From NCBI RefSeq assembly GCF_005239095.1, contig NZ_SZUA01000001.1:909049-973048 (forward strand): a stretch of DNA of 64,000 nucleotides, given 5' to 3'. The notes under the pieces are model-generated. The model did no database searches, had not been told where the DNA came from, and worked only from the letters and a program-made list of their open reading frames with translations. Position numbers and translations under genes: made by a program. Origin of the DNA: Luteimonas gilva. Lineage in GTDB: Bacteria; Pseudomonadota; Gammaproteobacteria; Xanthomonadales; Xanthomonadaceae. Positions 30,999-41,886 of this stretch are shown here, piece by piece (position 1 is the first letter of the stretch; each line of letters starts with the position of its first letter).

Positions 30999-31285
30999 CG
31001 CCGATGGCCGCGCCCAAGACGCCGCCCTGGAAGAAACCCAATCCGCTGAAGAAATCGGCGCGCACGCCGCTGACGCCCGCGCAGAAGCAAGAGGCCAAGC
31101 GCGCGCCGAAGCGGCCGGGCGGCGCTATCCGAACCTTATCGACAACATGGCCGTGGCCAAACGCAAACCCGGCAAGCCAGGCCCGGCGAAGCCGTAGGGC
31201 GGAACCGCCGCAGGCGATTCCGCCGATGGCGGCCGGAAAACTCAATTCACACGGCGGAATCCGCTTGGCGGATTCCGCTCGACGC

Positions 31286-32716
31286 TCACTCCGGCGCAGT
31301 TTCTTCCGATTTGTCGACGAACTTGCGCAGCAGCTTCTTGCCTTCCGGCGACTGCGCCAAGCCTTCGAGCATGCTGGCGATCGCGGTGCCGCCGTCGGCG
31401 GAGAACAAATCCATCACGCTGGAAATGCCTTTACCCGGCGTGCCGGCGTTGGAAATCACTTTGACGTCGGCGGACTTCAGCGCTTCCGCCTGGGCCATGC
31501 CGACGGCCTGCGCGGCTTCGATGTTGCGGATGCCGAGCAAGTAATTCTGGTACCCCTGATCGCTGCCGATCTTCTCGGCTAGTTTGATCTGCGCATCCAC
31601 CGGCGCCATCAGGATCGCGGTTTCGGCCTGGCCCTTCGCGTTGCCTTCGGCGGCGATGCCTTCGGCGTTGCGCTTGGCGGCTTCCAGTTTGCCTTCGGCG
31701 GTGAGCACGGTCTGCTGCTTGTCGCCTTCGGCCGACACGATCGACACCTGCTTGTTGGCCTCGGCCGACACCACCGCGACCTGCCGGTTCGCCTCGGCCT
31801 GCACGATGGCGACGTCCTTGGCCTGCGCCGCGGCGATGACGGCGGCCTCGCGGTTGATCTCCGCGCCGCGCACGGTTTTCACCTGCAGCACGTCCATGTC
31901 CTTGGCCGCGGTTTCGCGCTGCTGCACCTTCACTTGCTGCGCGGCTTGTTCGTTGGCCACGCCGACGTTCTTGTCCTTCTCGGCGGTACGCAGGCCCACC
32001 TGCTCGGCGGCCAGCTGGCGCGACATTTCGATTTCGCGCTTGGCGGCGATCTCGGCCATTTCGGCCTGGCGGGTGTTGTCGGCCACCACCAGGCGCGATT
32101 CGCGCTCTATGCCCGACGTGCGCTTGGCCATGATGTTCTGGATCACGTCGCTTTCCTTCGCGTCGCGGATATCCATCAACTCGATGTTCTTGATCGCCTC
32201 CACGCCCCACCCGCTCAGCTGCGGCTGCACTTCCTTGGTGAAGGCCTCGCCGAAGCGGCTGCGGTCGAGCATGATCTGGTCGATCTCGTGCCCGGCCAGC
32301 ACGGTGCGCACGGCGCCCTGAACGATGGCGGTCAACTGTTCCTTCAACTCGTCGAACGAGGCCACGCGCTGCGCGGCGGTGTTGGAATCGCTGATGCGGA
32401 AGAAGGCCATCACGTGGACCAGGAACGGGACGCGTTCCTTGTCGTAGGCGGCGTAGTCCGGCAGGTCGATGGCGAAGTTCGACACGGGCAAGGTGACGCG
32501 GGTCAGGCCGATCAGCGGGAAGCGCGACGGCCATTCGTAGTAGGTGTTGCTGTCGAAGCCCTTGCCGTAGGACACGGTGTTCTTGCGGGTCTGGACGATA
32601 TGGACTTCGTTGACCGGCACGACCCGGCGCAGGGCCAGGGCCCAGAAGAACATAATGGCGCCGACGATGGCGGCCGCGGCGACGATGGCGACCAGGATCA
32701 GGGACATGCCGAGCAT
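31286..32716 (-). CDS. Flotillin / SPFH (band 7) family protein, YqiK-like
   Basis: N-terminal TM segment, SPFH domain, long Ala/Gln/Glu-rich coiled coil (AAQAKDVAIVQAEANRQVAVVSAEANKQ...). Confidence 0.75.
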   Translation of the reverse strand: MLGMSLILVAIVAAAAIVGAIMFFWALALRRVVPVNEVHIVQTRKNTVSYGKGFDSNTYYEWPSRFPLIGLTRVTLPVSNFAIDLPDYAAYDKERVPFLVHVMAFFRISDSNTAAQRVASFDELKEQLTAIVQGAVRTVLAGHEIDQIMLDRSRFGEAFTKEVQPQLSGWGVEAIKNIELMDIRDAKESDVIQNIMAKRTSGIERESRLVVADNTRQAEMAEIAAKREIEMSRQLAAEQVGLRTAEKDKNVGVANEQAAQQVKVQQRETAAKDMDVLQVKTVRGAEINREAAVIAAAQAKDVAIVQAEANRQVAVVSAEANKQVSIVSAEGDKQQTVLTAEGKLEAAKRNAEGIAAEGNAKGQAETAILMAPVDAQIKLAEKIGSDQGYQNYLLGIRNIEAAQAVGMAQAEALKSADVKVISNAGTPGKGISSVMDLFSADGGTAIASMLEGLAQSPEGKKLLRKFVDKSEETAPE

Positions 32717-32938
32717 GGGACGGGTCCGGTTGGGTTGGGCAAGGAGGCGCAGTATAGGGGGGCACTCCCGGCCGGGAGCAATCGGGCGGCGGGCGCCTAA
32801 CCGTAGGGCGGAACCGCCGCAGGCGATTCCGCCGATGCCGTGTCGCAAGTTCGACCTACGAGTTCTGAGACGGCTTCTCCGGAACATTCGCAGCGGGTGA
32901 AAGGGCGTGATGTTGGGGTTTTACCCAACCTACGGGCT

Positions 32939-33790
32939 TTACCTAACAGCAGAGGACGCCTCCAATACATACAACTGATTCAACAACAAGAACTCCCTGA
33001 TGTCGTCTTCCAACCTATGCGATAGCTCCGCATGCGCCCTGCGATTTCTAAATGCGGAATAGGCACCTATAAAAAGCGAAGCCCGACCTTTCGCCTCACC
33101 CTCATCGACACCCTCCCAAAAGAGCAGCGAACCATCAACTTGAAATGCCTTTGCAAATAGCTTCGAACCAACGGCTCCAACAAGTCCGCACTTAGAAGCC
33201 AAAATTTGTTCCAATCGACGATATCCGGTCATGATTGCAGCATCCGGCTCTTTCTGAAATCTAATCGCAAGATCCATAATTCTGCTGTCAATAAGACGGA
33301 ATGGAATTAATGGCGGGAAGAACTCGTTAGCGCTCGATTTTTTCTCTATAGCGTCTGTCACATCGTATATATAGTCGTACCATCGAGTCGGCCTGATCGC
33401 TTTAGACTCTTCGATGATCTGGATGTCCTTATTAGTCATGGCGCTCCTGCCAAGGCGGTCAAGGATGCCTCTAGAAACATCGACCTCTTCTACAGCGACC
33501 CCGAATTCATGCAGAGCCAGAAGAGCAGCCGCGAGCCCCCTTGGTCCCTCGCCAGAATACCCAGAAGTAAATCCGTCCTTGATCGCTATGTAGTCGGTCT
33601 CATCCAACCGCAACAGGAAAGAATGCTGATGCCCGCAGGTCAACAAAGTAGCCCCAGTAATCCAAGCGTCGCACTGAATAAGCCTGATGATCGCAATGAC
33701 ACATGCTTGAGTAATACCAGAAAGGCCGTGATATTCGATTCCCGCCAGATCGTTCTCAGCAGTCATTTTCAGCGCCCCATAAAAGGCCAC
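32939..33790 (-). CDS. Low-GC island gene: HEPN-domain protein, Ymh/TIGR02391-like C-terminus
   Basis: C-terminal ...ASLFIGAYSAFRNRRAHAELSHRLEDDIREFLLLNQLYVLE carries an Rx4H HEPN motif. N-terminal 130-aa region unassigned. GC about 45%. GTG at 33790 or ATG at 33766. Confidence 0.5.
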   Translation of the reverse strand: MAFYGALKMTAENDLAGIEYHGLSGITQACVIAIIRLIQCDAWITGATLLTCGHQHSFLLRLDETDYIAIKDGFTSGYSGEGPRGLAAALLALHEFGVAVEEVDVSRGILDRLGRSAMTNKDIQIIEESKAIRPTRWYDYIYDVTDAIEKKSSANEFFPPLIPFRLIDSRIMDLAIRFQKEPDAAIMTGYRRLEQILASKCGLVGAVGSKLFAKAFQVDGSLLFWEGVDEGEAKGRASLFIGAYSAFRNRRAHAELSHRLEDDIREFLLLNQLYVLEASSAVR

Positions 33791-33996
33791 ATCTATCGCA
33801 CATTAACAGCGATGTCAGCTAGTGAAAAACGGGGTCAGAGACCATTACTAATAACGGTCCCTGACCCCGTTCTGCCGGGGTGAAACCCCAACGTCGCACG
33901 CTCACATCAGCGACGATCTCGACAGGAAAGCAGGGCTCCGGACATGGCGCAGCTCGTGACAGATGGTGATGTTGGGGTTTCACCCCAACCTACGAG

Positions 33997-34968
33997 CTAA
34001 ACTCTTAAGACGTCGACCCCAAGCGACAACATAGAATTCGTCTCGACATCGTCCACAAAATCCCTCCATGTACCCTGCTCAGTCCGCCTAGAACAATATG
34101 AGCATGCCATCGATATAAACGATGTCGCGACATCCCCTAGATCGATCAGAAACTGATCGATCTCAGACTGGTGACTCTCGCCGTACGATAGAAAAATAGA
34201 ATCCCGAAAACTTGCCTTACCTACATATCTTGCAGCCTCAACCAAAAAATTCACCTGCTGCGTGTCCAGATAGCGGTCGCGAAGTTCGCGCGCACGTCTA
34301 GTTCTGAAATCATGAACGCCTAAAGCAAGAAATTCAGGTGTTTCGCGCACTGTATGTTCCGCACGCTCCCGCTCGAACTTAACCGTACCGTGCAAGTACG
34401 AAACCAGCCCACCCCACGCCTCCGACGCACTAGATGGCGTTCGACTTAAATCATGTAAATTATTTTTTCGATACCGCTCGATCTCTTGCTCTGAGTCGGT
34501 TTTTACAAGCGTCGATATAAACGGCGAAAAAGGTGGAAAGATAAGATTGTGCGCAACAATATCTTCCTGCCACGCATAAGCTAACACCTCTATCCCATCT
34601 ACGCGCCGGCCACTCGCTGCTGCGACCATAGCAGCGGCAGCGGAATGGATACAGTGGTACCACGTAGAAATTGCTGGCCGACACACATCGTACCCATTCT
34701 CCGAGTTGGTTATTGTTATGAGCCCCGCCAAATGATTAAAAGCAAGAAAAACGTTCTCGAACACGGCTGTGTCTGCAGCACTATCTACTGGTCTCCGCGC
34801 AACATTGGAGTAGAAACTATGCAATGTCGCAGCCTCAAAGCTCTTATCGTCAACGAGCAGAGCGAGAGCTCTCATCCAATTCACAGTACCGTAAAATGCG
34901 AAATGTGGCGCTGGCTGGTCCAGCTCAAACAAGCGATTTAACAACCACCTTTGCGCACCTCCTCTCAT
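33997..34968 (-). CDS. Low-GC island gene: hypothetical protein (323 aa), no recognisable domain
   Basis: Strong AGGAGGAG RBS 8 nt upstream of the ATG; AT-rich codon usage unlike the host. Confidence 0.5.
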   Translation of the reverse strand: MRGGAQRWLLNRLFELDQPAPHFAFYGTVNWMRALALLVDDKSFEAATLHSFYSNVARRPVDSAADTAVFENVFLAFNHLAGLITITNSENGYDVCRPAISTWYHCIHSAAAAMVAAASGRRVDGIEVLAYAWQEDIVAHNLIFPPFSPFISTLVKTDSEQEIERYRKNNLHDLSRTPSSASEAWGGLVSYLHGTVKFERERAEHTVRETPEFLALGVHDFRTRRARELRDRYLDTQQVNFLVEAARYVGKASFRDSIFLSYGESHQSEIDQFLIDLGDVATSFISMACSYCSRRTEQGTWRDFVDDVETNSMLSLGVDVLRV

Positions 34969-34995
34969 ATCAGCTCCTCCTGCATGACCAGCACA

Positions 34996-37278
34996 TTAGC
35001 GATACCACTCAGTTAAATCTCTTATATGTTGACTGGCATCGGAGACGGACGGCTTAAAGACAATTTCCTTTTCGCTGATTGTTTGGATGTATGGCAGGAG
35101 CTCTGCAACGTCTTCCGGCAGAAACCCGTACCTCATTAATAAAACCTGCATGGCATCGTTTGTACCGAACCGCATTAGTTCGATTAACTTTAAAGCTCTA
35201 ATATCGTTACTAAATGCATAATAGATCTTGAAAGCCGCGGTAAATACGTCGTTCAATCCAAACGAAATCACCTGGTCCAGGTAATCATATGTGTCAAAGA
35301 CCACCGCGTCATAATTAACGTTTTTCGCGAGCGTCCCCTTAGGAAAAAGCGGAAATAAATTTTCTAAACTGGCGTCTGGCAATGCATTAGCTTTCTGCGC
35401 GAACATAGCTTCTCCGGCGTGACGCTGGTCGCGACGCGCAATTCGGCTGAAGCGAAGACCAACAATCTCACTAAACGATCGGCCTTGAAATGTCTGGATC
35501 ATTAGACCTATTGCCGTATGGAATATCGCCTGCTCGCCAGGCCTAAGGTGCCTATCCAACGACGCTTCGTAAATGACCCGAAGATTCTCTTCGACTTTCA
35601 AACGAGCACGCCGGTTCGAACCACCCCTCAAAGACCGCGATAATTCGTAGCCATTTGCGTAAACAATATCGAGTACCGCGCTTGCCGCGCTGCGTACTTC
35701 TAGACGTTCGAGACGCTCTGCTTTAGATTGCGGGATGTGCAATTGTTCGTCGAAAGTACCTTCACGGATCGCCTCAAGCAGTTCACTCATATCAAAGTCA
35801 GCCGGAAGCTCATCAGCATCGATCAAGGAAGCTTCAGATAGAACAAAGCTATGCTCCAACCTTTCAGCAAGCATTTGTGGATTCTTCGTGTAGACATAAC
35901 CGAAATCAAATTTCTGAGCGTCAGTTAGCCGGCCTGCTCGGCCGATTAGATTCTTGAACGCTAGTGATTTTGCAGAATCATCCTTACCTAATAACCGCGA
36001 AGTATCCAACCAAACCACATCGAATGGCATGTTGACGCCTTGCACTAATGTACTAGTTGCAAAACAGATTCGCGCATGCCCCTGGCGAACAAATTCCTCG
36101 ATTAGGAAACGAACTTCTAATGGAACAGAGCCGTGGTGAATAACAACACCCTTTCTAAGCAGCTCCACCATTTTCGAATAATGCCCACGCTGGTCCGCAC
36201 CTAAGAGATGCTCTATGGCAGAAACGATTTCGATTGCCTTTGGATGCGCGACCTCATCAAATCGATTGATAAATTCACTGAACCCTTCCAAGAAGGACTG
36301 GTTATAGATCGAATTCTTTGTTACATAAACGAGAACTGAGTGCCCCGAACTTAAAGCAAATTCTGCAAAATCCCCCTCGAACGTAAGGCAGTTTTTTAGT
36401 AGATGGCCACCCTCCTCATATGGCGAAAAGTAATAATCACTGCCGTTCGAGTGACCAAAAACGAAGACTTTCCCGACAGCGCCATAAGGATATGTTCTTG
36501 CAAAAGCACGGTTTTCTGGCAGATGGTGCTTCGAAAATTGTGCTTCTGGGTTATCGACAAATGGATGCGCAAAAACCAACTTCGCATTAGGAAATGCGCC
36601 GTTAACGCGACGAATCAGAACGTCGAACACCACACCCCGTTCCGCCTCCTCTGATATTTGGGCTTCGTCGAAGAAAAACGTCGTCACTGCAAGCTGCTCA
36701 CGCATTTCGAATAAATCTCGCGCCCGCTCCGGGGTCAGAACAAATATTCTTCGGAGTGGTCGCTGAGTAAAAACGTGATCGACAAACGGCATAATCATCA
36801 CATTCTTGTCGCTCGCAAATGCCAGTCGCATGACAGACAAATACTCGGCAATTAGCGCGCGAGACGGCACAACTACGACGGCATCACCATTCTCACTGGC
36901 AATAAAGTCGCGAATCGAATAGGACTTCCCCGCGCTTGTTGGGGCGGATATTGAAATAAATTGATTCTCGCCGAGAGCTCGCCGCACGCTTGCCTGCACT
37001 GGCGTCAATACGACCCCACTCTCTAACCGGTGCGCCTCACCCATCTGGCGGATAAGAAATGCGTAAAGACTGTTTGGCGACGCGACCTTGTAAAAGAGCC
37101 CCATTGCAGCAAGGATTTTTTCCTCCAATTGCTCAAAGGCCTCACTATGAAATACCTTATAAAGGCTGAGTGTCTCCAGAAGCCGCTGCGTATCTGGGCC
37201 ATGCGTATGAAGCCGCGCCAACAATTCCGCCAAGGTCGTGGACGGCATATTGTCGGCCATAATTTCTCTAAGCGTCAT
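34996..37278 (-). CDS. Low-GC island gene: SF2 DExx-box helicase, Hachiman HamB-like
   Basis: Walker A APTSAGKSY, motif II FFFDEAQ, motif VI-like ATSTLVQGVNMP. About 760 aa. Overlaps the upstream small gene by 11-20 nt. Confidence 0.65.
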   Translation of the reverse strand: MTLREIMADNMPSTTLAELLARLHTHGPDTQRLLETLSLYKVFHSEAFEQLEEKILAAMGLFYKVASPNSLYAFLIRQMGEAHRLESGVVLTPVQASVRRALGENQFISISAPTSAGKSYSIRDFIASENGDAVVVVPSRALIAEYLSVMRLAFASDKNVMIMPFVDHVFTQRPLRRIFVLTPERARDLFEMREQLAVTTFFFDEAQISEEAERGVVFDVLIRRVNGAFPNAKLVFAHPFVDNPEAQFSKHHLPENRAFARTYPYGAVGKVFVFGHSNGSDYYFSPYEEGGHLLKNCLTFEGDFAEFALSSGHSVLVYVTKNSIYNQSFLEGFSEFINRFDEVAHPKAIEIVSAIEHLLGADQRGHYSKMVELLRKGVVIHHGSVPLEVRFLIEEFVRQGHARICFATSTLVQGVNMPFDVVWLDTSRLLGKDDSAKSLAFKNLIGRAGRLTDAQKFDFGYVYTKNPQMLAERLEHSFVLSEASLIDADELPADFDMSELLEAIREGTFDEQLHIPQSKAERLERLEVRSAASAVLDIVYANGYELSRSLRGGSNRRARLKVEENLRVIYEASLDRHLRPGEQAIFHTAIGLMIQTFQGRSFSEIVGLRFSRIARRDQRHAGEAMFAQKANALPDASLENLFPLFPKGTLAKNVNYDAVVFDTYDYLDQVISFGLNDVFTAAFKIYYAFSNDIRALKLIELMRFGTNDAMQVLLMRYGFLPEDVAELLPYIQTISEKEIVFKPSVSDASQHIRDLTEWYR

Positions 37279-37999
37279 AGACGACACCGACCAAATAAAT
37301 CTGGCTTATTTTGTGGGTGCCGGCCAAAGCTTTGGCTTTCGTTATAGCGTTCTTGATAACAATATCCGGATTGGCAGCATTGATAGAAAATGCAGCCACA
37401 ACCCCGAAATCTTCGTTATCAAGGTTTTGTATCGCCTTTAATGGAACTAGCTTTTCAAGGTGCGTGCGATCTCTGAAATGCTTTTCTGCTTCTAGGAAAC
37501 TGGAAATCTGACTGATTGCCGCACCGTGAGGACTCTTCTGCGATGAATATTTTGCTTCGCCGAAATGGACTCGTTCAGCAGGGCAAACTGTATGAAAGTC
37601 GAAACCCTCATTCTGCTTAGCTTGTGGTTTCCACAATTCCGCCAACGGAACTTCATAGTGACTAAATACCTGATTTAGCGCCCTAGCAGCCCCCATCGAT
37701 ACCATTAGTTCGCCAAACTCTTCTTGGATGTCACTCGGCGGTATCAAGGATGCAGCTTTGAAAATATCGATTAATAGCGCCGCTGTCTCCGCTACGGTCT
37801 TTTCGTACGCGCGTCGCGCCCCCTTGTCTAGGTGCGCCATCCAGGAGGTGTCAACCACAATCTGGGTAAGTTCATGCGCGAGCTTACCTACATCGGATAC
37901 GGAAACCCTGCAGGCACGAATATTGTCGACTGCCAAGGCAGGCAATTCGCAGTGATCACATCCCCATGCAATATCGCTTATAACCCCAGTTGTACTCAT
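37268..37999 (-). CDS. Low-GC island gene: small protein with PD-(D/E)xK-like motif, candidate HamA (DUF1837-like) partner of the helicase
   Basis: GFDFHT...FGEAKYSS resembles a D...ExK nuclease core. About 244 aa from the first ATG. Position and overlap with the helicase match hamA-hamB architecture. Confidence 0.4.
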   Translation of the reverse strand: MSTTGVISDIAWGCDHCELPALAVDNIRACRVSVSDVGKLAHELTQIVVDTSWMAHLDKGARRAYEKTVAETAALLIDIFKAASLIPPSDIQEEFGELMVSMGAARALNQVFSHYEVPLAELWKPQAKQNEGFDFHTVCPAERVHFGEAKYSSQKSPHGAAISQISSFLEAEKHFRDRTHLEKLVPLKAIQNLDNEDFGVVAAFSINAANPDIVIKNAITKAKALAGTHKISQIYLVGVVYDA

Positions 38000-38220
38000 T
38001 GCGCTCCAGCCCCCCGACCAATGCCGCAATTGCCTTCGATATCCGTCGAATGCAGTGTAATTCTCTGAGATTCCGGCCGGAAGGTAGGACGAAAGGCGAA
38101 CGGATGCAAACAAGCCGCCCTGTAGGCGGCTTGAGAAAATTCTTAAAAGCAGAGTCCCGAGGTCTTGCCCTCACCCGATCCCATCTTCCGCAAGCGGATG
38201 ATGGCTTTGGACATAGCAGG

Positions 38221-41200
38221 TTACATATTCCGCCGATACTCCCCACCCACGTCATAAAGGGCATGACTAATCTGCCCCAACGAATGCGTCTTAACCGCCT
38301 CCATCAACGCCGCGAACACGTTCTTGCGGTCGCGGGCGGTGTTCTGCAGGTAGGCCAGGCCGTGGCCGTCGTGGACGAAATTCTGCTCCTCGTCCGAGCC
38401 GGCCAGATGACCGTGTGAGGTCTCGCCGGACGGGGCCAGGGCGTTGCGGGATTGCTGCCAGTTGGCGACGTTGGCGATCTGCTGGCCTTTCTCTTCCTCG
38501 GTCGAGCGGATCAGTTCGATCTCGGTAGCGATCTCGCCGCCGTGTTCCTTGGGCAGGAAGGTATTCACGCCCACCAGCGGCAGGCTGCCGTCGTGCTTCT
38601 TGTGCTCGTAGTACAGGCTCTCTTCCTGGATCTTGCCGCGCTGGTACATGGTGTCCATCGCACCGAGCACGCCGCCGCGTTCGCTGATCGCTTCGAATTC
38701 CTTGTACACCGCCTCTTCCACCACGTCGGTGAGGTATTCCACCGCGAAGCTGCCCTGCCACGGGTTCTCGTTGAAGTTGAGGCCCAGTTCCTTGTTGATG
38801 ATCATCTGGATCGCCACCGCGCGGCGCACCGATTCTTCGGTGGGCGTGGTGATCGCCTCGTCGTAGGCGTTGGTGTGCAGGCTGTTGCAATTGTCGAACA
38901 GCGCGTACAGCGCCTGCAGCGTGGTGCGGATGTCGTTGAACTGGATTTCCTGCGCGTGCAGGCTGCGGCCGCTGGTCTGGATGTGGTACTTCATCATCTG
39001 CGAGCGCTCGTTCGCGCCGTAGCGCTCGCGCATGGCGCGGGCCCAGATGCGTCGCGCGACGCGGCCGATGACCGTGTATTCCGGATCCATGCCGTTGCTG
39101 AAGAAGAACGACAGGTTGGGCGCGAAGTCGTCGATCTTCATGCCGCGCGCCAGGTAGTACTCGACGATGGTGAAGCCGTTACTCAGGGTGAAAGCGAGCT
39201 GGCTGATCGGGTTCGCGCCCGCTTCGGCGATGTGGTAGCCGGAGATCGACACCGAATAGAAGTTGCGCACCTTCTGGTCGACGAAGTACTGCTGGATGTC
39301 GCCCATCATCCGCAGCGCGAATTCGGTGCTGAAGATGCAGGTGTTCTGCGCCTGGTCTTCCTTCAGGATGTCGGCCTGCACCGTGCCGCGCACGGTGGCC
39401 AGGGTTTCGGCCTTGATCCTGGCGTAGGTGTCGGCGTCGACCATCTGGTCGCCGGACACGCCCAGCAAACCCAAACCCAAGCCGTTGTTGGTGGGCGGCA
39501 ACTCGCCGTGGTACTGCGGACGCGCGCGGCCTTCGAACAATTTCGCCAGCTTCTTCTCCGCTTCCGCCCAGCGCTGCGGATCTTCCTTCAAATACTTTTC
39601 GACTTGCTGGTCGATGGCGGTGTTCATGAACATCGCCAGGATCATCGGCGCCGGGCCGTTGATGGTCATCGAAACGGACGTGGTCGGCGCGCACAGGTCG
39701 AAGCCGGAGTACAGCTTCTTCATGTCGTCCAGCGTGGGGATGTTGACGCCGGAGTTGCCGATCTTGCCGTAGATGTCCGGGCGCGGCGCCGGGTCTTCGC
39801 CGTACAGCGTAACGCTGTCAAAAGCGGTGGACAGGCGCGCGGCGGGCTGGCCGACGCTGAGGTAATGGAAGCGGCGGTTGGTGCGCTCGGGCGTGCCTTC
39901 GCCGGCGAACATGCGGATGGGATCTTCGCCGGTGCGGCGGTAGGGATACACGCCGCCGGTGTAGGGATAGCTGCCCGGCAGGTTTTCCTTGCCCAGGAAG
40001 GTCAGCAGCTCGCCCCAGCTCTTGTAGGTGGGCGCGGCGATCTTCGGCACTTTCTGGTGGCTGAGCGATTCGCGGTAGTTTTCGACCTTGATCGCCTTGC
40101 CGCGGACTTCGTATTCGGTGAATTCGTCGGTGATGGACTTCAGGCGTTGCGGCCAGTCGCGCAGCAGCTTCAGGTTTTCGCTGGTGAGGGATTGGACGGC
40201 GTCGTTGTAGCGTTGGCGCAAAGTCAGCAGCGAGCGGTCGACCGCTTGAGCCCCCTCTCCCGCCTGCGGGAGAGGGTTGGGGTGAGGGTGCGCCGCGACC
40301 TGGCTGCCCTCACCCGCGCTTTCGGCGCGACCTCTCCCGCTCGCGGGAGAGGTTTGGAGTGCGTCGGCGCCGTAAAGATCGAGTTGCTTAGGCAATTGCT
40401 CGTCGCCGAGTTCGTGCAACGCCTGCCAGAACGCCTGCGCGCGATCCGCGGCTTCGGCCTGCTTCTCGATGGAGGCGTTGATCGCCCTGCCCTGTTCGGC
40501 GATTTCGGCCAGATAGCGGACGCGGGCGCCGGGGATCAGCACGGTGGCGCGCGGTTCTTTCAGCGAGGTGTCGAGCTTCGGCGTCCAAGTTTCCGCCGGC
40601 AGATGCAATTTCTCGCGCAGCAGTCGCGCCAGGTTGACGAACATCCAGCTGACGCCGGGGTCGTTGAACTGGCTGGCGATGGTCGGATAGACCGGGACGT
40701 CTTCGTCCTTGGTCTTGAACGCGGTGCGGTTGCGCTTCCACTGCTTACGGATGTCGCGCAAGGCGTCTTCGGCGCCGCGCTTGTCGTACTTGTTCAGCAC
40801 GATCAGCTCGGCGTAGTCGATCATGTCGATCTTCTCAAGCTGGCTGGCCGCGCCGTAGTCGCTGGTCATCACATACATGGGGAAATCGACCAGGTCGACG
40901 ATTTCCGAATCGGATTGGCCGATGCCGGCGGTTTCCACGATCACCAGGTCGTAGCCCAGGCCCTTCAGGAACGCGATGCAATCCTTCAGCACGGCGTTGG
41001 TGGCCACGTTCTGGCGGCGGGTGGCCATCGAACGCATGTAGACGCGATGGCTGCGCAGCGAGTTCATGCGGATGCGGTCGCCGAGCAGCGCGCCGCCGGT
41101 GCGGCGGCGGGTCGGGTCGACCGAGATCACCGCGATCTTCATCTGCGGGAAGCTGGCCAGGAAGCGGTTAAGCAGTTCGTCGGTGACCGACGACTTGCCG

Positions 41201-41886
41201 GCGCCGCCGGTGCCGGTGATGCCGACCACCGGCGTCTTGCCGCCGGCCAGTTGCCATTCCTTGCGCAGCTTGGAGAGTTCGGCTTCGGTGTAGTCGCCGT
41301 CTTCGATGGCGGACATGACTCGACCGATCGAGATTTCGTCTTGTAGGGTGGGCTTCAGCCCACCTTTTGCGGCCTCTGGCGAATTAGCATCGTCCGGGTT
41401 ACGGCGGGCTGAAGCCCGCCCTACGTCTTCACGGGCTTTTTTGGCGCGCACAACCACGTCTTCGATCATTTCCACCAAGCCCATCTTCATGCCGTCGTTG
41501 GGGTGGTAGATGCGTTCGACGCCGTAGGCTTCCAGTTCGCGGATCTCTTCGGGCGTGATCGTCCCGCCGCCGCCGCCGAACACGCGGATGTGCGAAGCGC
41601 CGCGTTCCTTCAGCATGTCGACCATGTATTTGAAGTATTCGACGTGGCCGCCCTGGTAGCTGGACAGGGCGATGGCGTCGGCGTCTTCCTGCAGCGCGGC
41701 GCGGACCACGTCCTCGACCGAGCGGTTGTGGCCCAGGTGGATGACCTCGGCGCCTTGCGACTGGATCAGCCGGCGCATGATGTTGATCGCCGCGTCGTGG
41801 CCGTCGAACAGGCTGGCGGCGGTGACGAAACGCAGCGGGCTGCGGTCGGCGTCGGTCTGGGGGAGGCTGGCGGCGGGAGTGCTCAT
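38221..41886 (-). CDS. icmF: Fused isobutyryl-CoA mutase (B12-binding domain, MeaB-like GTPase, mutase catalytic domain)
   Basis: N-terminal B12 domain ([10 protein letters not shown]), G-protein ([12 protein letters not shown]), C-terminal methylmalonyl-CoA-mutase-like barrel; 1221 aa. Contains in-frame repeat-element insertions at about 41342-41425 and 40248-40358. Confidence 0.8.
40248..40358. repeat. Composite hairpin element, family C (CCTCTCCCGCNNGCGGGAGAGG x2 plus GGGTGAGGG...CCCTCACCC), inside icmF coding sequence
   Basis: Three consecutive hairpins. A single-hairpin copy CCCCTCTCCCGCTTGCGGGAGAGGGG lies intergenic at 28105-28135. In icmF they encode ...[37 protein letters not shown]... 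in frame. Confidence 0.7.

What the first reader, a model, noticed from the sequence alone, without database searches (positions are those of the whole stretch)
32939..34968. Two uncharacterised cargo genes in the island: 323-aa orphan plus 283-aa protein with C-terminal HEPN (Rx4H, Ymh/TIGR02391-like) domain
The 283-aa protein ends with ...AYSAFRNRRAHAELSHRLEDDIREFLLL. This matches the Rx4-6H HEPN RNase motif and the Ymh-type C-terminal module seen in abortive-infection proteins. Its 130-aa N-terminal domain and the whole upstream 323-aa protein match nothing I recognise. Each gene is followed by its own copy of a 33-nt hairpin repeat, which suggests they arrived as separate modules. A HEPN effector with an unknown sensor or partner next to a Hachiman-like pair is a plausible undescribed toxin or abortive-infection module.
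Basis: partly seen in the sequence, partly recalled or inferred. Interest (0 to 1): 0.65.

Follow-up and report, generated by a model that had tools for sequence, protein, structure and literature searches.

The report
Hachiman third gene plus solo HEPN
The two genes are real but are not partners: the 323-aa gene is a previously undescribed, probably HEPN-like third gene of a Hachiman anti-phage operon, and the 283-aa gene is a separately acquired, ordinary member of the known Ymh family of HEPN RNase genes.

Summary

The proposed pairing fails. None of 80 loci holding a 323 homolog carries a 283 homolog, and the reverse is also 0 of 80. A very strong intrinsic terminator separates the two genes, and sister loci lack the 283 gene.

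Every close 323 relative instead sits in a co-diverging hamA-hamB-323 triplet. It occupies the slot that DUF3223 (HamC) holds in related Hachiman type II loci. More distant 323 homologs are solo genes next to other defence NTPases.

Verdict: a new three-gene variant of a known system, plus an ordinary new member of a known HEPN family. Interest is moderate.

The parts
37268..37999 (-). hamA-like nuclease gene (243 aa; the longest ORF runs to 38113 from a TTG start, but orthologs begin at Met39)
   Evidence: Six orthologs align from Met39, with invariant D172...G185-E186-A187-K188, which is the canonical HamA D-GExK motif (motif from PMC12799240). There are at least 497 homologs, one named 'DUF1837 domain-containing' by UniRef. 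Pfam and PADLOC HamA models do not hit. The gene overlaps hamB by 20 nt.
34996..37287 (-). hamB SF2/DEAD helicase gene (763 aa)
   Evidence: PADLOC HamB1 7.8e-52 and HamB2 1.8e-43. Pfam DEAD 6.6e-08.
33997..34968 (-). 323-aa third gene of the operon: an all-helical, HEPN-like protein from a family with no curated model
33936..33998 (.). REP-like hairpin (33965-33998) inside a duplicated unit of about 62 nt. It starts directly after the 323 stop codon and carries a pseudo-copy of the flotillin start (ATGTCCGGAG).
   Evidence: (D5, D12)
33874..33895 (.). Partial inverted copy of the REP-like hairpin; with the copy at 33968-33986 it forms an inverted pair 72 nt apart
   Evidence: (I5)
33825..33873 (-). 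Intrinsic terminator of the hamA-hamB-323 transcription unit
   Evidence: A 20-bp-plus stem followed by UUUUU on the coding strand. Folding energy is -40.6 kcal/mol with z -8.1, and 0 of 200 shuffles fold as well. See also inverted repeat I4. A hairpin beginning with the same AACGGGGTCAG lies at a similar distance after the 323 homolog in L002.
32939..33766 (-). Solo Ymh-type HEPN gene (275 aa from Met9; the longest ORF gives 283 aa, to 33790). It has an N-terminal TT1805/DUF3197/DUF6166-like alpha/beta domain and a C-terminal HEPN RNase domain.
32877..32940 (.). Second copy of the ~62-nt unit. The REP-like hairpin (32908-32940) abuts the 283 stop codon, and the rest contains the true flotillin start codon (32885-32887).

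Best explanation
The finding covers two unrelated units that share one low-GC defence islet downstream of icmF.

Unit 1 is a three-cistron Hachiman operon, hamA-hamB-323. By the published HamAB mechanism (established knowledge, not tested here), HamB is the DNA-sensing helicase that releases or activates the HamA D-GExK nuclease. The 323-aa protein is a co-transcribed accessory in the position that HamC (DUF3223) holds in related type II loci. It has a HEPN-like helical core without a canonical Rx4-6H site. It keeps an invariant Arg/Lys/Arg-Asp cluster (R247, K251, R255, D256) and a conserved His in helix 1. I infer that it binds, and possibly cleaves, RNA or a nucleotide ligand. On this reading it acts as a second arm or modulator of the Hachiman response. 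The analogy is to HEPN proteins embedded in R-M and other NTPase-based defence loci.

The operon ends at a strong intrinsic terminator.

Unit 2 is the 275/283-aa gene. It is an autonomous single-gene Ymh-family HEPN endoRNase of the Abi/toxin type. I infer that its N-terminal alpha/beta domain keeps the RNase in check or senses infection. It was inserted separately between the operon terminator and the flotillin gene.

Shown: gene structure, family membership, co-inheritance, lack of pairing, and the terminator. Inferred: every biochemical activity, and the functional coupling of the 323-aa protein to HamAB.
For: No pairing:
- 0 of 80 genome loci with a 323 homolog have a 283 homolog within 10 kb.
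- 0 of 80 metagenome loci with a 283 homolog have a 323 homolog.
- No profile-profile relationship exists between the two families.

Triplet:
- The window, L001, L002, L161/162, L163, L164/165 and L166/167 all carry hamA(~243 aa)-hamB(~760 aa)-323, with differing flanks.
- Identities to the window co-vary for HamA/HamB/323: 80/79/72, 71/70/62, 65/67/54, 60/65/55 and 55/64/52%.
- The linked 323 proteins are monophyletic and carry clade-specific changes, including R249 to V/A in 6 of 6.
- The gap between hamB and the 323 gene is 27 nt.

Slot:
- In the same HamAB subtype, DUF3223 follows hamB in L168 and L171 and precedes hamA in L172. L169 and L170 have no third gene. HamC is defined as DUF3223 in PMC8565338.

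Hachiman identity: with the motif.

HEPN-like fold of the 323-aa protein. JGI also names three family members 'UPF0332 family'.

Defence context of distant 323 homologs: HsdR, DUF499+HEPN_Swt1, HerA, AAA_13 and DUF3644 are tightly linked neighbours; GajA, pAgo and AbiEii-like genes also occur.

Terminator.

283-aa protein:
- Ymh HEPN membership; family description in PMC3710099.
- Its family sits near HsdR/HsdS/PtuA-like, NACHT, RT and integrase genes.
- The 283 gene is absent from L002.

Precedent for extended Hachiman operons: PezAT and abiJ, and HamM.
Against: - Functional coupling of the 323-aa protein to HamAB rests only on conserved linkage within one clade. In the other 78 of the 80 genome loci, the family occurs without HamAB and with no conserved partner. 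The protein can therefore work alone, and the linkage could be hitch-hiking.
- The 323 motif has no invariant His. The HamAB-linked clade has also lost R249, so RNase activity is doubtful.
- HamA is not recognised by DUF1837 or PADLOC HamA models.
- No promoter was detected for the 283 gene by the consensus scan.
- No expression or phenotype data exist.
Confidence: 0.5

Rival explanations
1. The 323-aa gene is an autonomous single-gene defence or toxin module. It sits next to hamAB and is co-inherited through tight physical linkage inside a small mobile islet, without any functional coupling to Hachiman.
For: 78 of 80 genome loci have the family without HamAB and with no conserved neighbour. 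The neighbours are heterogeneous. Almost all family members are about 320 aa with no fusions. Many solo copies have lower GC than their flanks, which suggests independent mobility.
Against: The triplet persists across at least five distinct sequence lineages down to about 52-55% identity. It keeps the same order and a short gap of about 27-44 nt, while the flanks change. The linked clade shows fixed substitutions at positions otherwise at least 90% conserved, including a motif arginine, which suggests adaptation to the new context. No terminator lies between hamB and the 323 gene, whereas a strong one lies just after it.
Confidence: 0.3
2. One reading: the 323-aa and 283-aa proteins form a two-gene module, with a HEPN effector and its sensor, partner or antitoxin.
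For: The genes are adjacent, on the same strand and in the same low-GC island. Both have HEPN-type folds.
Against: Co-occurrence is zero in 160 loci. A very strong terminator and about 200 nt of repeats separate them. The sister island L002 and the other triplet loci lack the 283 gene. The closest 283 relative is only 51% identical and occurs elsewhere.
Confidence: 0.03
3. The 323-aa protein is not a HEPN relative. It is a generic helical-bundle protein with a non-defence role, for example regulatory or structural, and its defence-island neighbours are coincidental.
Confidence: 0.12

Closest known systems
Hachiman type II (HamA-HamB-HamC; HamC = DUF3223; Payne et al. 2021, PMC8565338)
   Same: It has the same HamA(~244 aa)/HamB(~761 aa) subtype, 54-57% identical to the window proteins, and a small third gene placed directly after hamB or next to hamA.
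   Different: Here the third gene encodes a 323-aa all-helical HEPN-like protein, not a ~98-aa DUF3223 NTF2-like protein. It has no DUF3223 hit and no PADLOC hit of any kind, HamC models included.
Extended Hachiman systems of Streptococcus (pezAT-hamAB and abiJ-hamAB; Tian et al. 2025, PMC13064477) and HamMAB (PMC12799240)
   Same: A Hachiman core extended by an extra toxin or effector gene in the same operon. AbiJ is itself a HEPN-family protein. Both are precedents for lineage-specific accessory capture.
   Different: The accessory proteins differ, as do their positions (PezAT is upstream) and the Hachiman type (III-B). PezAT was shown to repress Hachiman expression. Nothing is known for the 323-aa protein.
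Ymh / PF09509 / TIGR02391 HEPN family (Anantharaman et al. 2013, PMC3710099)
   Same: The 283-aa protein is a member. It matches the Pfam model above its cut-off, has an invariant Rx4H motif and a HEPN fold, and occurs as a solo gene in R-M and defence neighbourhoods.
   Different: Its N-terminal domain is a TT1805/DUF3197/DUF6166-like alpha/beta domain. That is not one of the partner domains listed for Ymh in the paper (pMORC, AbiJ-NTD1/2, AbiTii).
HEPN-T / UPF0332 (PF05168; e.g. AF0298, PDB 2hsb)
   Same: It is the best structural match to the core of the 323-aa protein. Solo family members show R-x6-D with a conserved His elsewhere, as described for HEPN-T variants.
   Different: The 323-aa protein is 2.5 times larger, with long insertions. 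It has no MNT partner, does not match the Pfam model, and has lost the motif Arg249 in the Hachiman-linked clade.
PrrC / RloC-type HEPN RNases embedded in R-M loci
   Same: This is a works-like analogy. A HEPN protein is genetically attached to an NTPase/nuclease DNA-targeting defence system, possibly as a second line (PMC3710099). 323 homologs sit next to HsdR, AAA_13, HerA and DUF499.
   Different: The 323-aa protein has no ABC-ATPase domain and no canonical Rx4-6H. A guard function is pure inference.

Membership tests
Ymh HEPN family (PF09509 / TIGR02391): 283-aa protein | Match to Pfam PF09509 above the gathering score | tested here: met
   29.5 bits against a cut-off of 25. 26 of 26 family members hit, best E 8.1e-14.
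Ymh HEPN family (PF09509 / TIGR02391): 283-aa protein | Match to NCBIfam TIGR02391 above its curated cut-off | tested here: inconclusive
   My scan gives 19 bits against a cut-off of 39.45. NCBI nevertheless names the identical protein 'TIGR02391 family protein'.
Ymh HEPN family (PF09509 / TIGR02391): 283-aa protein | Conserved Rx4-6H endoRNase motif | tested here: met
   R240-N-R-R-A-H245 in 275-aa numbering. R, N and H are invariant in 26 sequences.
Ymh HEPN family (PF09509 / TIGR02391): 283-aa protein | All-alpha HEPN fold | tested here: met
Ymh HEPN family (PF09509 / TIGR02391): 283-aa protein | RNase activity or toxicity | not testable with these tools
   Needs expression and cleavage assays.
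HEPN superfamily: 323-aa protein | HEPN four-helix fold | tested here: inconclusive
HEPN superfamily: 323-aa protein | Match to any curated HEPN sequence model | tested here: not met
   0 of 26 members hit a HEPN Pfam family at E<=10. NCBIfam, PADLOC and PHROGs are also negative. hhalign against the Ymh and MNT-HEPN alignments was negative.
HEPN superfamily: 323-aa protein | Rx4-6H motif | tested here: not met
   There is no invariant His in the motif block. Solo members have R249-x6-D256; the window's clade has V or A at position 249.
Hachiman (HamAB) | HamB SF2 helicase matching HamB models | tested here: met
   PADLOC HamB1 7.8e-52; Pfam DEAD.
Hachiman (HamAB) | HamA DUF1837 nuclease encoded directly upstream of hamB | tested here: inconclusive
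   Pfam DUF1837 and PADLOC HamA models do not hit any of six orthologs. In favour: the canonical D-GExK motif is invariant (motif), the gene overlaps hamB, and one homolog is named a DUF1837 protein by UniRef.
Hachiman type II | Third gene encodes DUF3223 (HamC) | tested here: not met
   The 323-aa protein has no DUF3223 hit. DUF3223 does occupy this slot in related loci L168, L171 and L172.
Two-gene toxin/partner module (323 + 283) | Homologs of the two genes co-occur across genomes | tested here: not met
   0 of 80 and 0 of 80 loci.

The most novel reading that the evidence does not exclude
The 323-aa family is a new, unannotated branch of the HEPN superfamily. It acts as a portable plug-in second effector or guard for different NTPase-based DNA-targeting defence systems: Hachiman here, and type I R-M HsdR, AAA_13 ABC-ATPases, HerA and DUF499 elsewhere. 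In one lineage it has been fixed as an obligate third subunit of Hachiman that functionally replaces HamC, with accompanying remodelling of its active-site motif (R249 lost).
Probability: 0.3. Interest if true: 0.6.

Novelty: new variant of a known kind. Interest (0 to 1): 0.42.

Why it matters
Hachiman is a widespread, broad-spectrum defence system. Its known accessory variation (HamC/DUF3223, HamM-protease, PezAT, AbiJ) is only starting to be understood, and HamC's role is still unknown. A second, unrelated protein in the HamC slot of the same HamAB subtype offers a natural comparison: what does the third gene contribute (regulation, a second target, protection against anti-defence)? It also gives a handle on a family of about 400 clusters that has no annotation at all.

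The 283-aa gene adds little beyond another domain architecture for the Ymh HEPN family. The negative result is useful in itself: adjacency in a defence islet does not imply partnership.

Tried and rejected
- Pairing of the two genes as a toxin/partner module: rejected by the co-occurrence data.
- Conserved-neighbour search by all-against-all clustering of flanking ORFs: no partner for either family.
- Integron-cassette or attC reading of the hairpin repeats: rejected on reading the sequence. The hairpin is only about 25-33 nt, its arms do not fit the RYYYAAC/GTTRRRY cores, there are only three copies, and the duplicated unit also contains the flotillin start region. This was not tested with an attC model.
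- The repeat is absent from all 172 fetched loci and from the viral contigs.
- Rfam and tRNA scans of the window: nothing found.
- Sequence-level bridges from the 323 family to HEPN all failed. These were a Pfam scan at E<=10, a PDB profile search, hhalign against the Ymh family and against an MNT-HEPN neighbour cluster, and a deep profile search of 1.84 billion proteins that returned only same-architecture relatives.
- Foldseek against PDB for the 323 model: no significant match.
- The afdb50 fold library was unavailable.
- PDB sequence searches with the 283-aa family profile and with the window protein's N-terminal domain: only chance-level hits.
- The consensus promoter scan found no promoter for either transcription unit, and missed the strong terminator because the stem exceeds its pattern limits.
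Full report
**Observation**

The window is from Luteimonas gilva: both proteins have 100% matches to NCBI records of that species. Positions 33,000-38,100 form a low-GC islet, about 49% GC against about 65% in the flanks. All its genes are on the minus strand. In the order of transcription they are:
- icmF, 38221-41886 (native GC)
- a 243-aa gene, 37268-37999
- a 763-aa helicase gene, 34996-37287
- the 323-aa gene, 33997-34968
- the 283-aa gene, 32939-33790
- a native flotillin/SPFH gene, 31286-32887

**The 283-aa protein**

It matches Pfam Hypoth_Ymh (PF09509) above the gathering score, as do all 26 aligned homologs. The alignment shows an invariant R-N-x-R-A-H motif. NCBI starts the protein at Met9, giving 275 aa, and names it 'TIGR02391 family protein'.

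The AlphaFold model is confident, with pLDDT 88.6. It has two parts:

[quoted passage not shown] The N-terminal domain found here is not on that list. Otherwise the protein is an ordinary member of the family.

Its relatives sit near type I HsdR and HsdS, PtuA-like ATPases, NACHT NTPases, reverse transcriptases and integrases. No partner is conserved.

**The 323-aa protein**

It is not an orphan. The word-indexed search lists at least 158 clusters. An exhaustive profile search finds 393 representatives at 50% identity, nearly all about 320 aa and without fusions. No Pfam, NCBIfam, PADLOC or PHROG model matches, even at E<=10 across 26 members.

Other methods do not confirm this. Foldseek gives nothing significant, and profile comparisons are negative. 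I therefore call the protein HEPN-like, not a demonstrated HEPN member.

The most conserved block is F-R-Y-R-G-K-A-N-Y-R-D-S-I-F-L-S-Y-G, and it contains no invariant His. Solo members show R249-x6-D256 and a conserved His at position 78. This resembles the HEPN-T pattern in which 'D replaces conserved H... have a conserved H elsewhere' (residues).

**Are the two genes partners? No.**

- Of 80 genome loci holding a 323 homolog, none has a 283 homolog within 10 kb.
- Of 80 metagenome loci holding a 283 homolog, none has a 323 homolog.
- Between the two genes lies a 20-bp-plus hairpin followed by UUUUU on the coding strand. Its folding energy is -40.6 kcal/mol, with z -8.1. This is a strong intrinsic terminator.
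- The sister islet in Luteimonas sp. WGS1318 (L002) has icmF-hamA-hamB-323. A hairpin that begins with the same AACGGGGTCAG follows at a similar distance. There is no 283 gene.

**What the 323 gene really belongs to**

The 763-aa protein is HamB (PADLOC 7.8e-52). The 243-aa protein upstream is not recognised by DUF1837 or HamA models. Even so, it overlaps hamB, carries the invariant canonical D-GExK motif (motif from PMC12799240), and has a homolog that UniRef names a DUF1837 protein.

Every close relative of the 323-aa protein that I could place (53-73% identity) sits in the same triplet: hamA(~243 aa)-hamB(~760 aa)-323. The flanks differ between loci. The placed loci are L001, L002, L161/162, L163 (Lysobacter antibioticus), L164/165 and L166/167.

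The three proteins co-diverge. Identities to the window for HamA/HamB/323 are 80/79/72, 71/70/62, 65/67/54, 60/65/55 and 55/64/52%. The linked 323 proteins form one clade in a neighbour-joining tree. The hamB-323 gap is 27 nt, with an AGGAGG ribosome-binding site read, and no terminator was found between the two genes.

In the same HamAB subtype at 51-57% identity, the third-gene position varies:
- A DUF3223 gene follows hamB in L168 (Pseudoxanthomonas) and L171 (Xanthomonas translucens). This is HamC, which defines Hachiman type II (PMC8565338).
- A DUF3223 gene lies upstream in L172 (Janthinobacterium).
- There is no third gene in L169 (Vibrio harveyi) or L170 (Pseudomonas aeruginosa).

The 323 gene therefore occupies the HamC slot in one lineage. 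I found no description of such a third gene in the Hachiman papers I could search. Extended Hachiman operons with PezAT, abiJ or HamM are precedents for lineage-specific accessory capture.

**Distant 323 homologs**

The other 78 of the 80 genome loci lack HamAB and have no conserved neighbour. Their tightly linked, co-directional neighbours are nevertheless recurrently defence-type NTPases or nucleases:
- type I HsdR (gap 20 nt)
- DUF499+HEPN_Swt1
- HerA
- AAA_13 ABC-ATPases
- DUF3644, another HEPN family

GajA, pAgo, AbiEii-like genes, conjugation genes and integrases also occur nearby. Many copies have lower GC than their flanks. The family is thus mobile and can evidently function without Hachiman.

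The Hachiman-linked clade carries fixed substitutions at ten positions that are at least 90% conserved in solo members. These include R249 to V/A (6 of 6 against R in 20 of 20) and an H78-N79 to N78-H79 swap. This is consistent with a functional shift after capture.

**Mechanism: shown and inferred**

Shown:
- the operon structure
- family membership
- co-inheritance of the triplet
- the terminator
- the independence of the 283 gene

From the literature: HamB senses DNA damage or aberrant DNA and licenses the HamA nuclease (PMC12278908 abstract).

Inferred:
- The 323-aa protein acts with HamAB as an RNA- or nucleotide-binding accessory, either as a second effector or as a modulator. The analogy is with HEPN proteins attached to R-M systems and with PezAT's modulation of Hachiman.
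- The 275-aa protein is an autonomous HEPN endoRNase of the Abi type, and its N-terminal domain gates the activity.

The main rival is that the 323 gene merely hitch-hikes beside hamAB.

**The repeats**

There are three copies in the 64-kb window, where 0.14 are expected by chance, and all flank the 283 gene. On the coding strand the element reads GTAGGTTGGGG-N-CCCCAAC and starts 1-5 nt after each stop codon. This looks REP-like, which is an inference from the GTAG start and the hairpin.

The two direct copies belong to a duplicated unit of about 62 nt. That unit also includes the flotillin start region: ATGTTCCGGAG in the real copy and ATGTCCGGAG in the pseudo-copy. This points to a local duplication that accompanied insertion of the 283 cassette, not to a cassette-recombination system. 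The exact order of events remains unexplained.

The element is absent from all other fetched loci and from the viral contigs.

**Verdict**

The 283-aa gene is a new member of a known kind. The hamA-hamB-323 operon is a new variant of a known system. Interest is moderate.

Noticed in passing
window 38221-41886 (icmF) and the islet downstream of it; L002, L161, L163, L013, L126: The 3' flank of icmF recurs as the site of low-GC defence cargo. It carries hamA-hamB-323 in three Xanthomonadales loci (4.4 kb away in Lysobacter), a solo 323 homolog convergent with icmF in Halovibrio, and a different islet in L126 (PtuA/OLD-like ATPase, two unknown genes and a 283-family gene). This may be an integration hotspot.
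   Followed up: partly
window 31192-31231, 31252-31284 and 32801-32840: A second, unrelated REP-like repeat family (CCGTAGGGCGGAACCGCCGCAGGCGATTCCGCC) brackets the flotillin gene: two direct copies at 98% identity plus an inverted partner.
   Followed up: no
L044 7677-12228 and L046 136-4859: In Photobacterium damselae and Vibrio pectenicida, the 323 homolog sits between an AAA_13 ABC-ATPase (720 aa) and a DUF3644 (HEPN-family) protein (415 aa), in the same order in both loci. This may be another fixed three-gene arrangement.
   Followed up: partly
L168 6725-9006: In this Pseudoxanthomonas-like type II Hachiman locus, hamB is called as two ORFs (318 + 442 aa). This is either a frameshift or pseudogene, or an assembly error.
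   Followed up: no
window 33936-33960 (minus strand): A 12-codon remnant ORF beginning ATGTCCGGAG duplicates the start of the flotillin gene (ATGTTCCGGAG at 32877-32887). This shows that the junction region was copied when the 283 cassette and the repeats were assembled. The order of events is unresolved.
   Followed up: partly
L163 14008-14703: A Y1 transposase (PF01797, the family that includes the REP-associated RAYT transposases) lies about 5 kb from the Lysobacter antibioticus hamA-hamB-323 islet. No such gene was looked for in the window.
   Followed up: no
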